In this document: positions 3,355 to 40,104 of the stretch, piece by piece
How the letters are laid out: each line of letters opens with the position of its first letter
How positions within the stretch are numbered: the stretch's first letter is position 1
From: Octopus vulgaris
Taxonomy: Eukaryota
NCBI GenBank assembly: GCA_951406725.2
Contig: OX597825.1
Span: 13,578,001 to 13,642,000, forward strand
Reading direction: 5' to 3'
Length of the DNA stretch: 64,000 nt
Translations under genes and position numbers: made by a program
Notes under the pieces: generated by a model
The model's input: the letters and a program-made list of their open reading frames with translations, nothing else
What the model was told of the DNA's origin: nothing
The model's database searches: none

Positions 3355-4444
3355 TTAATTTCTCAACATCTCATAGAAGAAGTTTCGTGGGAATACTGAA
3401 TTCACAAGTGGTCCCCGACATCCCGCATGCATATCCTGAGTGACAGGACGCCTGTTTGCCATGGAGTCTCCACAGACACAGGGACAGAATGACCTCAAAG
3501 CCGCCGGATGCCGATCAGATGCCTCTTGGAATTTTCACCAGTTGGCCAGGCTGCGGTCCTAATACCACTTGGGTGGCCCTAACAGGAACCAAAGTTCCTG
3601 ACGGCATAGCTCTGACACTGCCCGTTTACACCACCATACCACTTTGAGAAGGGGTTGAACTTTAGGGATGGACCAGAGAAGAAGCTGGCTCAACCCGCCC
3701 TGAGTGAACGCCGTCACATGTACAAGAACAAGTCTCAACATCTGGTACCAAGCCATTATCTTCAATTCTACATCACCATTCTCTTGCAAATTACCTGGTG
3801 ACTTCACCAGTGCTTGGTGCCATGAAAAAATGCACCTAGTGAACTCTAAGTTGTTGGCATTAGGAAGGACATGCAGTCTTAGAAACCTTGCCAAAATAGA
3901 CATTAGAGACCAACACAGCTTTCTGGTTGGTCAGATCTCAAAACTTCCTTCCCATTTTAGCATGGAATACAGACATTAAAGGATGATAGTGATGATGATG
4001 AGGAGGAGGATGGTCTGCTTTGAGTTCTAAAGAATTATTTTGCACCAATCTATCCAAGGCTGCATAGTAGTCAAACTACTTTTTATGCCCTTCCTACTGG
4101 GAACCACTCAACCTTGAAATAGAAGCAGAGCAAGTTTAGGAGCATAATTTGTTTTCTTCTTCATTCAAGCAGTTTGGAACAAACTGTTATCTGCTTTGCT
4201 TGAAGATACAACATAATGACAATGGTAAAAATTTTAGTTAAAATCAGGAAGAAATTATGAATCCATTTTTACTGAGTTGGAAGAAATGCCGCCAAACCCT
4301 TAATTTGATGTGGTAATGATTCTTCTTGGTCATGTCTTTGGCTTATTTTGAATAATTAATCCAAATTATTATTTCAGCTAAAATTTCTGACAATGTGGAC
4401 AAAACACAAGAGATTGCTAACATTTGTCAGACAACAAATTTATA

Positions 4445-4672
4445 TTAGTTTCAAATTTTGGCACAAGGCCAGCAAGTTCTGCTTAGTGGGTGGGGAGGGG
4501 GCAAGTTGATTACATCAACCCCAGTATTCAACTGGTACTTATTTTATCAATGTTGAAAGGATGAAAGGCAAAGTCAACCTCAGCAGAATTTGAACTCAGA
4601 ACGTAAAGATGGACGAAATGCTGAAAAGCGTTTGGTCCAGTCTGCTAATGATTTGGCCAGCTTGCTGCCTTT
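4445..4672 (-). mobile_element. tRNA-derived SINE, Nin/Deu-like central domain
   Basis: Matches the window's ~240-bp family (A box GGCAGAATCGTTAG, B box GAGTTCAAATTCC, GCCTTTCATCCTTTCGGGGTCGATAAATTAAGTACCAG). Confidence 0.75.
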
Positions 4673-4682
4673 ATCAAGCATC

Positions 4683-4689
<7 letters not shown>

Positions 4690-4717
<28 letters not shown>

Positions 4718-5180
4718 TTAATATCCGCTTTCCATGCTGGCATGGGTTGGATGGTTTGACTGAGGGTTGACGAACCAGAAGGCTGCACCAGGCTCCAGTC
4801 TTATCTGGCAATTTTTCTACAGCTGGATGCCCTTCCTAACGCCAACCACTCCGTGAGTGTTGTGGGTGCTTTTTACATGCCACTGGCATGAGGGGACAGT
4901 CAGGCAGTACTGACATCAGCTATGCTTGAATGGTGCTTTTTATGTACCACCAGCATGGGCCAGTTAGGCAGTACTGACATTGGCCATGCTCCAATGGTGC
5001 TTTTTACATGCCACTGGCACAAGGGCCAATCAGGCAGTACTGGCGTTGGCCATGCTCGAATGGCGCTTTTTACGTGCCACTGGTATGAGGTCCAGTCTGG
5101 CAGCACTGACATGAACCACACTCGAATGGTGCTGTTTACGTGTCACCAGCATGGGTGCCAATAACTTCACTTGCCTCAAC
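4690..5180 (-). mobile_element. Meta-domain-like SINE 3' part with (ATG)n tail and ~62-bp internal repeats
   Basis: GGTTGGCGTTAGGAAGGGCATCCAGCTGTAGAAA motif on - strand; more than 10 copies in window. Confidence 0.75.
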
Positions 5181-5547
5181 GACTTCCCTTGCCTCAACGA
5201 CTTCCCTTGCCTCAACGACTTCCCTTGCCTCAACGACTTCCCTTGCCTCAACGACTTCCCTTGCCTCAACGACTTCCCTTGCCTCAACGACTTCCCTTGC
5301 CTCAACGACTTCAACCTTCCCTTGCCTCAACGACTTCCCTTGCCTCAACGACTTCCCTTGCCTCAACGACTTCCCTTGCCTCAACGACTTCCCTTGCCTC
5401 AACGACTTCCCTTGCCTCAACGACTTCCCTTGCCTCAACGACTTCCCTTGCCTCAATGACTTCCCTTGCCTCAACGACTTCCCTTGCCTCAACGACTTCC
5501 CTTGCCTCAACGACTTCACTTGCCTCAACGACTTCCCTTGCCTCAAC
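5164..5547. repeat. 18-bp minisatellite ACTTCCCTTGCCTCAACG, ~21 copies
   Basis: Counted directly; 7-nt interruption at 5308-5314. Confidence 0.97.
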
Positions 5548-6121
5548 AATATTGGTTTCGAATTTTGGCACAAGACCAGCTATTGTAGACGAGGCTGCAA
5601 GTCGATTACATCAACCCCAGTATGCCACTGGTACTTAATTTATCGACATCGAAAAGATGAAAAGCAATGTCAACCTCAACATAAAGACAGACGAAATGCC
5701 ATTAAGCATTTTACCAAATGTGTTAGCACTTCTGCCAGTTTGTTGCTTTGAAAGAATAATCAGAATGGTGAAAGGTTAATTCCTTTTATGCATCTAAATT
5801 TGGAAGTTTTGTTTTATTTCCACGAAGACAAAACTGTAAAAAGCAAAAAAAAATTTATATTGGTTCCATGTAAAATTGTAAAAGACTGACATCAATGGTT
5901 GAGCAAGTTTTTCTGTTATACGTCCATATATTTTTGCCTGAAAGCACAAGAATGATGGATGGCATCGTTTACACTGAATGACTGACACAATGATAAACTA
6001 GATGCAGATAGATATTTTATGATTGCTTCGTATTCTGAGTTCGAAATCTCTTGGGTTTTGGTAAGAAATTGTCAGGAAGTTATTGGAAGTTAGATTGAAA
6101 AGTTTGGCTAAATTCAGAATA

Positions 6122-6604
6122 CTCTTTACTCTTTTACTCTTTTATACTTGTTTCAGTCATTTGACTGCGGCCATGCTGGAGCACTGCCTTTAGTCGATCA
6201 AATTGCCCCCCAGGACTTATTCTTTGTAAAACCCGGTACTTATTATATCAGTCTCTTTTGCCGAACCGCTAAGTGACAGTGACGTAAACTCACCAGCATT
6301 GGTTGTCAAGCAATGCTAGGGGGACAAACACAGACACACAAACATGCACACATATATATATATCATCATCATCATCATTATCATCGTTTAACGTCCGTTT
6401 TCCACGCTAGCACGGGTTGGACGGTATATATACATATATACGACGGGCTTCTTTTAGTTTCCGTCTATCAAATCCACTCACAAGGCTTTGGTCGGCCCGA
6501 GGCTATAGTAGAAGACACTTCCCCAAGATGCCACGCAGTGGGACTGAACCCGGAACCATGTGGTTGGTAAGCAAGCTACTTATCACACAGCCACTCCTGC
6601 GCCT
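6122..6604 (-). mobile_element. CORE-like tRNA SINE (~400 bp, abundant octopus-type family)
   Basis: Head GGAGTGGCTGTG...GGTTCAGTCCC, CORE-like CTTGGG(C/G)AAGTGTCTT, internal (TG)n, GTAAAAGA-type tail; small nested Meta-SINE tail at ~6363-6424. Confidence 0.8.
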
Positions 6605-27509: not shown

Positions 27510-28557
27510 CGAAATCGATCAACATCAATGGAAATTATAGCTGTGATACCAGTACTGGTGGCACGTAAGAGAACCATCTGAACGTGGCCGTTGCCAGTGC
27601 TGCCCCGACTGGCTTCCGTGCCGGTGGTACGTAAAAAGCACCATCCGATCATGGCCGTTGCCAACCTCGCTTGGCCTCCATGCCAGTGGCACATAAAAAG
27701 TACCATCCAATCGTGGCCGTTTGCCAGCCTCGTCTGGCACCTGTGTCGGTGGTACGTAAAAAGCACCATCCGATCATAGCCATTGCCAACCTCGCTTGGC
27801 CTCCATGCCAGTGGCACATAAAAAGTACCATCCAATCGTGGCCGTTTGCCAGCCTCGTCTGGCACCTGTGTCGGTGGCATGTAGCACCATCCGATCATGG
27901 CCATTGCCAACCTCGCTTGGCCTCCATGCCAGTGGCACATAAAAAGTACCATCCAATCGTGGCCGTTTGCCAGCCTCGTCTGGCACCTGTGTCGGTGGCA
28001 TGTAAAAAGCACCATCCGATCATGGCCATTGCCAACCTCGCTTGGCCTCCATGCCAGTGGCACATAAAAAGTACCATCCAATCGTGGCCGTTTGCCAGCC
28101 TCGTCTGGCACCTGTGTCGGTGGTACGTAAAAAGCACCATCCGATCATGGCCGTTGCCAACCTCGCTTGGCCTCCATGCCAGTGGCACATAAAAAGTACC
28201 ATCCAATTGTGGCCGTTTGCCAGCCTCGTCTGGCACCTGTGTCGGTGGTACGTAAAAAGCACCATCCGATCATGGCCGTTGCCAACCTCGCTTGGCCTCC
28301 ATGCCAGTGGCACATAAAAAGTACCATCCAATTGTGGCCGTTTGCCAGCCTCGTCTGGCACCTGTGTCGGTGGCATGTAAAAAGCACCCACTACACTCAC
28401 GGAGTGGTTGGCGTTAGGAAGGGCATCCAGCTGTAGAAATATTGCCAGATCAGACTGGGCCTGGTGCAGCCTTCTGGCTTCCCAGACCCCAGTTGAACTG
28501 TCCAACCCATGCCAGCATGGAGGACGGACGCTAAATGATGATGATGATGATGATGAT
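27510..28557 (+). mobile_element. Meta-domain-like SINE with expanded internal 125-bp array
   Basis: Six 125-bp units starting 27631, 27756, 27881 (121 bp), 28002, 28127, 28252; (ATG)n tail. Confidence 0.9.
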
Positions 28558-32154: not shown

Positions 32155-32192
32155 TCCTTTATGTTTCGAGCCTACGCTCTTCGACAGAAAGA
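32155..32192 (-). ncRNA. Minimal hammerhead motif (family B1) in element 32069-32267
   Basis: UCUUU-CUGUCGA-A-GAGC[GUAG]GCUC-GAAAC-AUA-AAGGA; element flanked by TATTCTA direct repeat inside a MITE. Confidence 0.5.
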
Positions 32193-37552: not shown

Positions 37553-38556
37553 TAAAAAAATAAAAAAAATAAAAGTGAAATAAAAGCCATGATGGAAACC
37601 AAAATTAAAACAAAGGAAAAATAACAAACAAATATTGATGAAACTGATAAAAAAAAATTTAAACGAACCAAAACTGCAAACAAACCTCGTTAGGTGTTTT
37701 AGAAGAAATGAATATCAAGATCCAAGATTTTTGAAATGTTGAGAAATTCTTTGGTAATTAGAATGGTTGAACACTAAAACATTGAATTGTTTGGGAATGT
37801 GTGGGAGGAAGATGAGGAGAGGGAAGCCGTGGGGGTGGGGCAAATATTTTGTTTGTTGTTGTAGAATGTTTTGTTATGTTGTATCTTTTGTTTTGTATTT
37901 GTTTTGTTATAAGGCTGCTCCCATGCTGGGGCATCATCGCCTAGAAGAATTTTTTTGGGGGGGGGGTTTGTTGAATGAATTGAATTGAACCCTTGGTTTA
38001 TGTGTTTACATGTTTTTTTTTAAGTGTGGTACTTGATCTATCGGTCATTTTTGCTGAAGCGCTAAGTTACTGGAATGTAGACACATCGATGTCACTTGTC
38101 AAATAGTGTTAGGGGATAAACACAAAGACACACACACATACAAACATATACACAAACATACACACACCACACTACACAAATACAAAAACACAATGACACA
38201 TAAACACTCAAGCACAAACATACACACACAAATACATATACACACACACACACACACCACATACAAATACATATACACAGACACAAATACAGATACACAA
38301 ACATACACACACACACACCACTCACATAATTGTTGATGGAAATGGAAAATGGATTTAGCATGAATCTTCATTGAATGCGATGATCATTTCGCCCCATCCT
38401 GCAGCTGTCTTTTACGAGCAGGATATTGTACACCAAATTGCATCAATCACTGGATGACACCAGGTTCCCCAAATGGTCAATGGGTTTTAACCAGCATATA
38501 AATATACTTATACCCAAAGTCCAAATAATTACTTATGTATATATGTATGTATGTAT

Positions 38557-38765
38557 AATGTAACCACATGTGTATCGTTGGCGATTTTTTTTCCTCCGTC
38601 TTCCCTTCCTTGGATCTTTCCTTTTCCTATGTTTCTGATGAAGAGCTCCGCTCGAAACGTTAAATCCTCCTTCTTTCTTTCCTTTCCTGAGTGTCCAATA
38701 ACACTATACTTGTTCCATGTCCTCCTGTTGCTGTGTTTTCTCTTTGTGTTTCATGTTTCGATTAT
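38557..38765 (+). mobile_element. ~210-bp PLE-like non-autonomous element (family B2)
   Basis: Colinear with 15001-15210 (-) and 53860-54410 (+); TA-rich flanks; contains an HHR. Confidence 0.7.
38631..38665 (+). ncRNA. Intact minimal type-I hammerhead ribozyme motif
   Basis: GUUU-CUGAUGA-A-GAGC[UCC]GCUC-GAAACGUU-AAAU; full core, palindromic ACGU stem III; predicted cleavage after 38661. Confidence 0.75.
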
Positions 38766-40104
38766 ACATATATAGTAGGGAATATAATTCTAAACTTACA
38801 GGGAAAAATTCAATTTGACAATTCTAAATCAAATTTCACAATATATAATATATGTATAAAATTTAGAGAAATAACCTCTATTAAACAAACAACTTAATAA
38901 TCATAGACGTTATTCACACCATATAGAAAAGTTAAATATACTATAAAAAACACTATTCTAAAAATCAATAGAGTACATAAACAATAAATAGTAAATAGTA
39001 TATATGTGCTTCAGTTTCTGTCTACCAAATCCACTCACAAGGCTATAGTAGAAAACACTTGTTTAAGATGCCACACAGTGGGACTGAACCCAGAGCTATG
39101 TTGTTTTGAAGCAAGCTTCTTACCACACAGCCATACCAGTGTCTGAACATTGTTATATTTTATTCTGAAGACAAAATGTGATTCTATATATATTTCATTC
39201 TTTCTTCGTCCTTTCATTCTTGCTTCTGCATATGGAAAAAAAAAAGCCTCTTGTGTCATTGTTTTGTTTTCCTTCTGTCCTTTTCCATGTTCTGTTCTAC
39301 AAGAATGGCTTCCTGATTCACTGTTCAGTTCTTCAAAGGAAGGATACTTCTATTCTGTCAGTTGGAGATGAGTTATATTCTGTAATAGACATCTAGGAAA
39401 CATTTAAAAGTTCTGCTACTTCAGTGATGAATATTTCTTAAGCCCTTCATTTCTCGTTGTGCATAAGCATCAGTGACCTTTTTTTCACATTTATCAACCC
39501 TGAGGTTGTCTCCCTGAGGGAAAGCTTTCTTCTCTCAAGTCTTTCTGGTTTTGAATTATCAGCCATACTTCAGTAACTTTGCCTTTTTTCTACGTAGGGT
39601 TGTCAGTCTTACACAAATCCATTAACTGTGAAGCAGGGGTCAATATTAGTTTGACTACTGTCCTTTGACCTTTCCTGCATAGGGAGCTCTACCTGGGGCT
39701 CGCACTTTATGGGCACAGTTCTCAGGGTCTTATTGAGGCATACAGACACCAAATCACGATGATGATGGAATCTTGTGGTAGGATTAATATTATGATATCA
39801 GCTTAGAGTTTGACAATAAGTAAGCTGTGACCTGCAAGCGCACCATGGAGGTTTTCTCTGTGGTCCTCATATCGGTTTTGGAAATTCATTGCCTTTGCAG
39901 ACATTGAACAGTTATTAGATTTTCAGCAAATGAATTAAGCTTGTGAAAATTTACATTCCATTTGAGGATGCAAGAACTTGGTAGAATGGTGCTTTAATAT
40001 TCTCAATATTCGATTTTATAGCATCTTTTGTGTCATAATTTGTTAAAGTGTTGCTTATATAAGCATTGGAAAAGGGGGTTATGTAGCAATATGTTTCTGT
40101 ATGT

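What the first reader, a model, noticed from the sequence alone, without database searches (positions are those of the whole stretch)
38631..38665. Intact 35-nt minimal hammerhead, the best candidate for an active ribozyme here
Seen: GUUU/AAAU stem I, canonical CUGAUGA, one extra A, GAGC/GCUC stem II, and GAAACGUU with a loopless palindromic ACGU stem III. Known: PLE-associated minimal HHRs of this form need dimerisation through the palindrome to cleave. Inference: it could cleave a + strand pre-mRNA after 38661 if partnered.
Basis: partly seen in the sequence, partly recalled or inferred. Interest (0 to 1): 0.75.

Follow-up and report, generated by a model that had tools for sequence, protein, structure and literature searches.

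The report
Lone hammerhead in Penelope transposon end
This motif has the shape of a self-cutting RNA, but it is one of thousands of copies left at the ends of a known kind of jumping gene; it has no intact partner nearby and is predicted to fold into an inactive shape, so this copy likely does not cut.

Summary
The motif is real. 38631-38665 is a minimal type I hammerhead with intact core, extra A, 4-bp stems I and II, loopless ACGU and a GUU site. It is the only intact one of 7 such motifs in 104 kb. It lies in a ~210-nt solo pseudo-LTR (38557-38764) between TA-like tracts. Longer copies join this end to a reverse transcriptase + GIY-YIG ORF with Neptune/Nematis-type motifs. The genome holds 2,077 exact copies of the 33-nt core. 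Stems covary across families, but after insertion the motif decays like its flanks (p=0.37), so being intact is common, not a sign of use. No partner, no host exon, and a predicted fold that blocks the core (P=0.86) argue against cutting a pre-mRNA here. The kind is published, and this scan noted it before on other DNA of this genome (e1-8669779). Side result: 30 of 36 copies that reach -99 stop within 12 nt upstream of there, and 1 of 58 starts at the cut site, so templates were mostly uncut.

The parts
38631..38665 (+). Minimal type I hammerhead motif (stem I, core, extra A, stem II with 3-nt loop, loopless ACGU, U17); predicted cut after 38661
   Evidence: Sequence; family counts; covariation
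38557..38764 (+). Solo pseudo-LTR (3' end of a Penelope-like element, family A); 5.2% from the majority of its 29 nearest copies, 7 of 11 changes at CpG
   Evidence: ORF link in longer copies
38629..38660 (+). Predicted inhibitory helix: AUGUUUC (38629-35) with GAAACGU (38654-60), stacking on stem II and hiding C3, G12-A14 and the palindrome
   Evidence: ViennaRNA: P(C3-G12 pair)=0.86, P(stem I)=0.004 in a 61-nt context; same MFE
38657..38660 (+). ACGU palindrome (AACGUU with A14 and U17) that would pair with a second copy to make stem III
   Evidence: Sequence; invariant in 11 of 11 representatives, (most were found with patterns that required it)
38535..38556 (.). Degenerate TA/TATG tract at the 5' junction (insertion target); the copy starts at -105 from the cut site, inside the family's 5'-end cluster
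38765..38774 (.). Short TA tract at the family's fixed 3' end, about 105 nt after the cut site

Best explanation
The motif is the minimal hammerhead inside a solo pseudo-LTR of a Penelope-like retrotransposon, one of thousands of dispersed copies, and this lone copy is likely an inactive passenger. Shown: it sits in a ~210-nt repeat with a fixed 3' end in TA tracts; longer copies carry a CA-rich 3' UTR and, further upstream on the same strand, an RT + GIY-YIG ORF; a young sister family has full pLTR-ORF-pLTR elements. Inferred from the literature and from covariation: in the active parent element the motif was kept by selection, and it would cut only after two copies pair through ACGU and swap stem I arms, probably with help from the element's own protein. 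Inferred for this copy: the parent's enzyme nicked a TA tract and copied an uncut RNA from an internal start about 105 nt after the cut site, through the hammerhead, stopping 105 nt before it. The copy has since decayed neutrally and its 35 nt stayed intact by chance.
For: Copy number: 2,077 exact 33-mers vs 0 control; 10,498 generic minimal cores vs 3 control. ORF link: in 19 of 20 loci picked by the ORF end, the pLTR lies downstream on the same strand (2 of them partial); 14 of 20 match the sister family's protein. Motifs DKGG, YIDD, CX4CXXC linker and CXXC inside GIY-YIG in a 949-aa sister ORF; linker and GIY-YIG also in family A frames. Neutral decay: non-CpG changes 33/1227 in the motif vs 217/6768 elsewhere, p=0.37; CpG 9.8% vs 9.7%. 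Intact in 14 of 48 rows and 23 of 44. Only 1 of 58 copies begins within 5 nt of the cut. No partner in 104 kb. Blocked fold, and active dimer 10 kcal/mol above two monomers. PMC4209133: single min-HHR showed no cleavage, dimers low. PMC11167929: PAc HHR cut only with protein, and unprocessed RNA was the dominant insertion substrate.
Against: No cleavage assay was possible. Nearest-neighbour energies omit the tertiary core, Mg2+ and proteins, so the 10 kcal/mol gap is not a rate. Thousands of compatible copies exist, so pairing in trans is possible in principle. The decay test has power only for average constraint and cannot exclude selection on one copy; no other individual or species was compared. 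No family A element with two pLTRs around an intact ORF was retrieved; that layout is shown for the sister family (about 75-89% protein identity). Pfam RVT_1 and GIY-YIG hits are below the curated cut-offs. The locus could lie in a large intron that I could not see.
Confidence: 0.9

Rival explanations
1. The copy is transcribed in a host + strand transcript and cuts it at a low rate by pairing in trans with one of the thousands of family copies, or with help from the PLE protein.
For: All core letters and both stems are intact. 2,077 exact partners exist in the genome. GUU is listed among cleavable NUH sites (PMC3138052, passage). Protein-assisted cleavage is shown for PAc (PMC11167929).
Against: No exon or gene found. 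The core is predicted to be blocked. Even linked dimers cut poorly in vitro (PMC4209133). PAc RNA-seq showed no reads ending at the cut site. That GUU is slower than GUC is recalled, not from a call.
Confidence: 0.07
2. The ~210-nt unit is a self-contained non-autonomous element (SINE- or retrozyme-like) that is copied from other solo copies, not a truncated end of the long element.
For: Most family A copies share both ends: 30 of 36 that reach -99 stop within -110..-99; only 3 of 58 run beyond -300.
Against: Longer copies show staggered 5' ends through the UTR into the ORF. No tandem arrays of the unit were seen among 50 loci beyond one partial doublet and local duplications. Ends do not fall at the cut site, as a cleaved monomer's would.
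Confidence: 0.12
3. The copy has been co-opted by the host as a regulatory ribozyme.
For: It is the only intact motif among 7 in 104 kb; its single change inside the motif is at the free position 7.
Against: 1 change in 35 nt fits its overall 5.2% divergence; 30-50% of sampled copies are intact; no gene context.
Confidence: 0.02

Closest known systems
Minimal type I hammerheads (min-HHR) of metazoan Penelope-like elements (Cervera and de la Pena 2014, PMC4209133; parts 1-2 of 4 read, supplements not seen)
   Same: Full core, no helix III or loop 3, palindromic 15.2-16.2, extra nucleotide after A9, G10.1-C11.1, 4-5-bp helix I, location in pLTRs, thousands of mostly single dispersed copies per genome.
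   Different: Helix II is 4 bp with a 3-nt loop, against 7-8 bp in the Schistosoma families described. This family is not among those named in the parts I read. U17 and the predicted core-blocking helix are specific to this family.
PAc (Poseidon of Anolis; Frangieh et al. 2024, PMC11167929; parts 1-2 of 4 read, supplements not seen)
   Same: Sense-strand HHR in the pLTR; AT-rich targets; genomic copies end at a fixed internal point downstream of the HHR; insertions made from uncut RNA.
   Different: In PAc the ORF starts inside the HHR. In the sister family here the first Met of the long frame lies about 450 nt after the HHR, the ORF has the CX2-5CXXC linker absent from Penelope/Poseidon, and a 1-3 kb CA-rich UTR separates ORF and 3' pLTR.
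Neptune/Nematis-type C-terminal EN+ PLEs (Craig et al. 2021, PMC8557442; passages and section 6 read)
   Same: RT then GIY-YIG, DKG motif, CX2-5CXXC linker, cysteines inside GIY-YIG, 5' truncation, direct and inverted pLTRs, microsatellite targets.
   Different: No tree was built, so Neptune versus Nematis is not resolved.
Dimer-cleaving small hammerheads of PLEs (Lunse, Weinberg and Breaker, PMC5785218; not held; seen only as a title and through review PMC6765202, section 11 part 2)
   Same: Per the review: palindromic, very short stem III; cleavage as dimers, at very low rates.
   Different: Could not check whether this exact family or a mollusc example was assayed there.
Animal non-LTR retrozymes (bioRxiv 10.64898/2026.07.22.740005, part 1 of 5 read)
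   Same: Type I HHR related to PLE pLTRs.
   Different: Retrozymes are tandem arrays with an HHR in each unit; this is a single end fragment of a coding element.

Membership tests
PLE minimal type I hammerhead (PMC4209133) | Conserved core C3-A9, G12-A14, A15.1-U16.1, H17 | tested here: met
   CUGAUGA, GAAA, U16.1, U17
PLE minimal type I hammerhead (PMC4209133) | No helix III/loop 3; palindromic 15.2-16.2 | tested here: met
   ACGU at 38657-60
PLE minimal type I hammerhead (PMC4209133) | Extra nucleotide between 9 and 10.1; G10.1-C11.1 pair | tested here: met
   A38642; G38643-C38653; G-C in 10 of 11 representatives
PLE minimal type I hammerhead (PMC4209133) | Compensatory changes in helices I and II across families | tested here: met
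   90.9% of cells paired vs 78.0 +/- 2.0 shuffled; 7 of the 8 stem I/II pairs have two-sided changes; slid controls 18-39%. 11 hand-picked, related representatives
PLE minimal type I hammerhead (PMC4209133) | Location in the pLTR of a PLE | tested here: met
   pLTR downstream of the ORF end in 19 of 20 loci; sister elements with an HHR in both repeats
PLE minimal type I hammerhead (PMC4209133) | Self-cleavage as a dimer | not testable with these tools
   Only folding energies, which disfavour the active form; no raw RNA reads were offered
C-terminal EN+ PLE, Neptune/Nematis type (PMC8557442) | Single ORF with RT followed by C-terminal GIY-YIG | tested here: met
   949-aa ORF in sister element L170 with YIDD and GIY-YIG; broken family A ORFs match it; Pfam RVT_1 E=0.001 and GIY-YIG E=0.011, both under cut-off
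C-terminal EN+ PLE, Neptune/Nematis type (PMC8557442) | DKG motif | tested here: met
   DKGG in the sister ORF; letters not read in a family A copy
C-terminal EN+ PLE, Neptune/Nematis type (PMC8557442) | CX2-5CXXC linker and CCHH motif with two cysteines inside GIY-YIG | tested here: met
   Seen in family A frames L142, L138 and in L170
C-terminal EN+ PLE, Neptune/Nematis type (PMC8557442) | pLTR layout, 5' truncation, microsatellite targets | tested here: met
   Staggered 5' ends and fixed 3' end in TA tracts; two pLTRs 5.9-6.2 kb apart in 6 sister elements examined
C-terminal EN+ PLE, Neptune/Nematis type (PMC8557442) | Placement in the Neptune group on an RT tree | not tested
   No named reference RTs were fetched
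Animal non-LTR retrozyme | At least two consecutive tandem units, each with a complete HHR | tested here: not met
   Single copy; no tandem repeat at the locus; no intact neighbour in 104 kb
Animal non-LTR retrozyme | Non-coding family with no ORF of its own | tested here: not met
   Longer copies run into an RT/GIY-YIG ORF
Rfam hammerhead families | Match to an Rfam covariance model | tested here: not met
   three unrelated chance matches at E 4.9-8.1, none a hammerhead

The most novel reading that the evidence does not exclude
Solo pLTRs like this one are the PLE equivalent of strong-stop cDNA: the enzyme starts at its internal site about 105 nt after the hammerhead cut site and runs through an uncut hammerhead to the 5' end of a pLTR-initiated mRNA about 110 nt before it. 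The sharp 5' edge would then mark the transcription start, and thousands of copies would be a genomic record that the ribozyme is off in the 5' pLTR of the template, in this family perhaps by a core-blocking helix.
Probability: 0.35. Interest if true: 0.4.

Novelty: new member of a known kind. Interest (0 to 1): 0.16.

Why it matters
As a single locus it matters little: it is ordinary transposon debris of a published kind. The family-level data bear on an open question, what PLE hammerheads are for. Covariation across families says they were under selection in active elements, while insertion ends say that the templates were mostly uncut. That fits the in vitro result for PAc. The 5'-end cluster gives a cheap, testable prediction of where these elements start transcription.

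Tried and rejected
Rfam scans of the window and of 38560-38760: no hammerhead model matched (only the best 150 of 343 rows were shown, all miRNA-like matches to simple repeats). Expression: no RNA holder listed (kinds are guesses, contigs only). Four runs laid on 38400-39030 show family-like contig pieces over 38554-38729 and no listed piece joining unique flank to the motif; this is no evidence for or against transcription, strand or cut ends. Host gene: 62% of the window masked as repeat; 138 of 138 unmasked frames of 45 aa or more gave no Pfam hit above cut-off (136, 2). Closely spaced direct copies (L031, L032, L034) had no ORF or shared body between them and look like separate insertions or local duplications. 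A guessed upstream pattern found nothing. The PLE ORF near the copy in L048 belongs to another family. Idea that the core-blocking helix is a conserved switch: rejected as general, since family C favours stem I (P=0.78) and family B misfolds differently. Idea that cleavage sets the 5' ends of copies: rejected, 1 of 58. Lunse et al. was not held. Paper searches for this family in cephalopods and for solo pLTR formation found no description of the hammerhead family or of a 5'-end cluster; PMC13282606 has no occurrence of hammerhead or ribozyme in its main text; its supplements and the supplementary HHR tables of PMC4209133 and PMC8557442 were not seen and may list it.

Full report
Observation. 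The 35 nt are as described: GUUU 38631-34, CUGAUGA 38635-41, extra A 38642, GAGC/GCUC with a UCC loop, GAA 38654-56, ACGU 38657-60, U17 at 38661, AAAU 38662-65. The loose core pattern is barely enriched in the window (7 matches, 2.9 expected, 4 of 100 shuffles as high) and Rfam has no hammerhead hit. The motif is real all the same. The exact 33-mer occurs 2,077 times in G000 against 0 for the reversed control, and a generic minimal-core pattern 10,498 times against 3. Among 7 hammerhead-like motifs in the window plus 20 kb on each side, it alone keeps core, palindrome and both stems.

What it sits in. The motif is the middle of a ~210-nt repeat (38557-38764) between TA-like tracts. The 40 best-scoring of 4,020 first-look candidates are 88-93% identical. 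All copies share the 3' end, about 105 nt after the predicted cut. Copies picked by upstream sequence have staggered 5' ends in a CA-rich region over 1 kb long, and one reaches the last codons of an ORF. Of 20 loci picked by that ORF end, 19 have the pLTR downstream on the same strand (2 partial), and 14 match a PLE protein by tblastn; ORF stop to hammerhead is about 1.0-1.8 kb. A young sister family (B) has complete elements: six examined carry two hammerhead repeats 5.9-6.2 kb apart, 98.8-99.9% identical, around an ORF. One has an unbroken 949-aa ORF with DKGG, YIDD, a CX4CXXC linker and CXXC inside GIY-YIG; family A frames show the same linker and GIY-YIG. Pfam RVT_1 and GIY-YIG hits are weak and under cut-off. 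By the motifs in PMC8557442 (passages, section 6) this is a C-terminal EN+ PLE of Neptune/Nematis type; no tree was made. No family A element with two pLTRs and an intact ORF was retrieved.

Selection. Across 11 hand-picked representatives of related families, 90.9% of cells pair (shuffled 78.0 +/- 2.0; slid 18-39%) and 7 of 8 stem I/II pairs change on both sides. The representatives are related and were found with patterns that fix the core, so this is support, not a probability. It points to selection in active parents. After insertion there is none to see. In 48 copies picked by sequence outside the motif (47 loci, one fetched twice; 11 subfamily-diagnostic columns left out), non-CpG changes are 33/1227 in the 35-mer and 217/6768 elsewhere (p=0.37); core alone 10/431 (p=0.39); CpG 9.8% vs 9.7%. 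14 of those 48 are intact, as are 23 of 44 in a second set. The window copy differs from the majority of its 29 nearest copies at 11 of 212 sites, 7 at CpG; the one change inside the motif is C to U at the free position 7. Being intact is therefore an ordinary state.

Can this copy cut? A loopless stem III needs a second molecule. PMC4209133 (parts 1-2 of 4) found no cleavage for a single min-HHR and low cleavage for dimers and trimers. PMC11167929 (parts 1-2 of 4) found that the PAc hammerhead cuts only with the element's protein, that cleavage is not needed for insertion in vitro, and that no RNA-seq reads ended at the site. Here no intact partner lies within 104 kb. Folding predicts AUGUUUC pairing with GAAACGU (P=0.86), stem I at P=0.004, and the strand-swapped active dimer 10 kcal/mol above two monomers at 37 C, 12 at 18 C. 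These energies ignore the tertiary core, Mg2+ and proteins. The site is GUU, which is cleavable (PMC3138052, passage) and, from recall, slower than GUC. The + strand pre-mRNA has no support: 62% of the window is repeat and 138 unmasked frames gave no Pfam hit above cut-off. A large intron is not excluded.

How the copy was made. I took 60 copies chosen by the 3' end only (60 of the first 62 listed; two already held were skipped) and mapped 5' ends; 58 could be placed (two pairs look like local duplicates). Only 1 of 58 starts within 5 nt of the cut site, so cleaved RNA is not the usual template. Of 36 copies that reach -99, 30 stop between -110 and -99, about 0.11 per nt against 0.0035 per nt further downstream; 3 run past -300. 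The window copy starts at -105. The edge lies just before a conserved ATG and, in family A, at TCATTC, which resembles an initiator (consensus recalled). My reading is that reverse transcription starts at the internal site near +105, as shown for PAc, and runs to the 5' end of a pLTR-initiated RNA. Penelope transcripts do start in the upstream pLTR (PMC2377424, passages). Against this: in family B only 5 of 40 copies start at the matching place (-121 to -115), 26 align beyond -150, 6 belong to a subfamily that does not align upstream, and the initiator-like word is not kept. Microhomology with TA/TG repeats could also favour these junctions. PMC3846280 (passages) explains solo pLTRs by recombination or deletion instead. 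I put this reading at 0.35.

Known versus new. It works like, and meets every testable feature of, the minimal type I hammerheads of metazoan PLEs; cleavage is untested. It is not a retrozyme. Searches found no paper naming this family, but supplements were not seen and the key dimer paper was not held. This scan already reported the same kind on other DNA of this genome (e1-8669779). The host is called an octopus in those unchecked notes; I did not test that.

Verdict. Observation confirmed, interpretation partly supported. Ordinary solo end of a Penelope-like element with an intact but probably silent hammerhead. New member of a known kind; interest 0.16.

Noticed in passing
L122, L124, L128, L170-L172 (G000); 1,467 exact 35-mers: The youngest sister family (pLTRs 98.8-99.9% identical, one unbroken 949-aa ORF) has a U4C core (CCGACGA), a GUC site and a stem I with a U-U mismatch; it is predicted to misfold. 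It spread with an altered core, which fits relaxed need for cleavage.
   Followed up: partly
L034:8255-8298 and about 15 other copies; window 32161-32187 (-): Family C has A6 changed to U (CUGUYGA) but a better 5-bp stem I; related copies keep CUGAUGA.
   Followed up: partly
window 14844 (+), 15130 (-), 26549 (-), 32187 (-), 33829 (+); L129:9456 (+): Six decayed minimal hammerheads of families A, C and D, each broken in the core or palindrome. 15004-15224 is a second family A solo pLTR, 84% identical to this one.
   Followed up: yes
family 5' ends, about -104 to -120 from the cut; window 38558-38560: An ATG sits just inside the 5'-end cluster in families A, B and C, followed at once by a stop (A) or by three codons and a stop (B, C). 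It may be a tiny upstream ORF, a promoter element or shared descent.
   Followed up: partly
window 38684-38693: A TTCCTGAGCG-like word 20-30 nt after the cut site is shared by families A, B and C while the sequence between differs. Role unknown.
   Followed up: no
L012, L021, L033; L167-L169: Inverted pairs of pLTR copies 0.15-1 kb apart, as is typical of PLE insertions.
   Followed up: no
L048:1-2100 and 4181-6410: A different PLE ORF (DKSG, GIY-YIG-like end) stops at a degenerate hammerhead-like word; nearby a LINE RT fragment (RVT_1 E=8e-30) splits a family A pLTR.
   Followed up: partly
window 27618-28388 and 5164-5547: Tandem arrays with periods 125 nt (6.2 copies, 96%) and 18 nt (20.9 copies, 94%).
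   Followed up: no
window 53648-54190 (+), 63453-63848 (-), 13026-13175 (-): Probable transposon protein fragments: weak C2H2 fingers, a frame resembling a LINE endonuclease end (by eye), and a weak DDE_3 hit.
   Followed up: partly
window 38777-38857: The sequence right after the pLTR is another repeat, 91% identical to 53767-53847.
   Followed up: no
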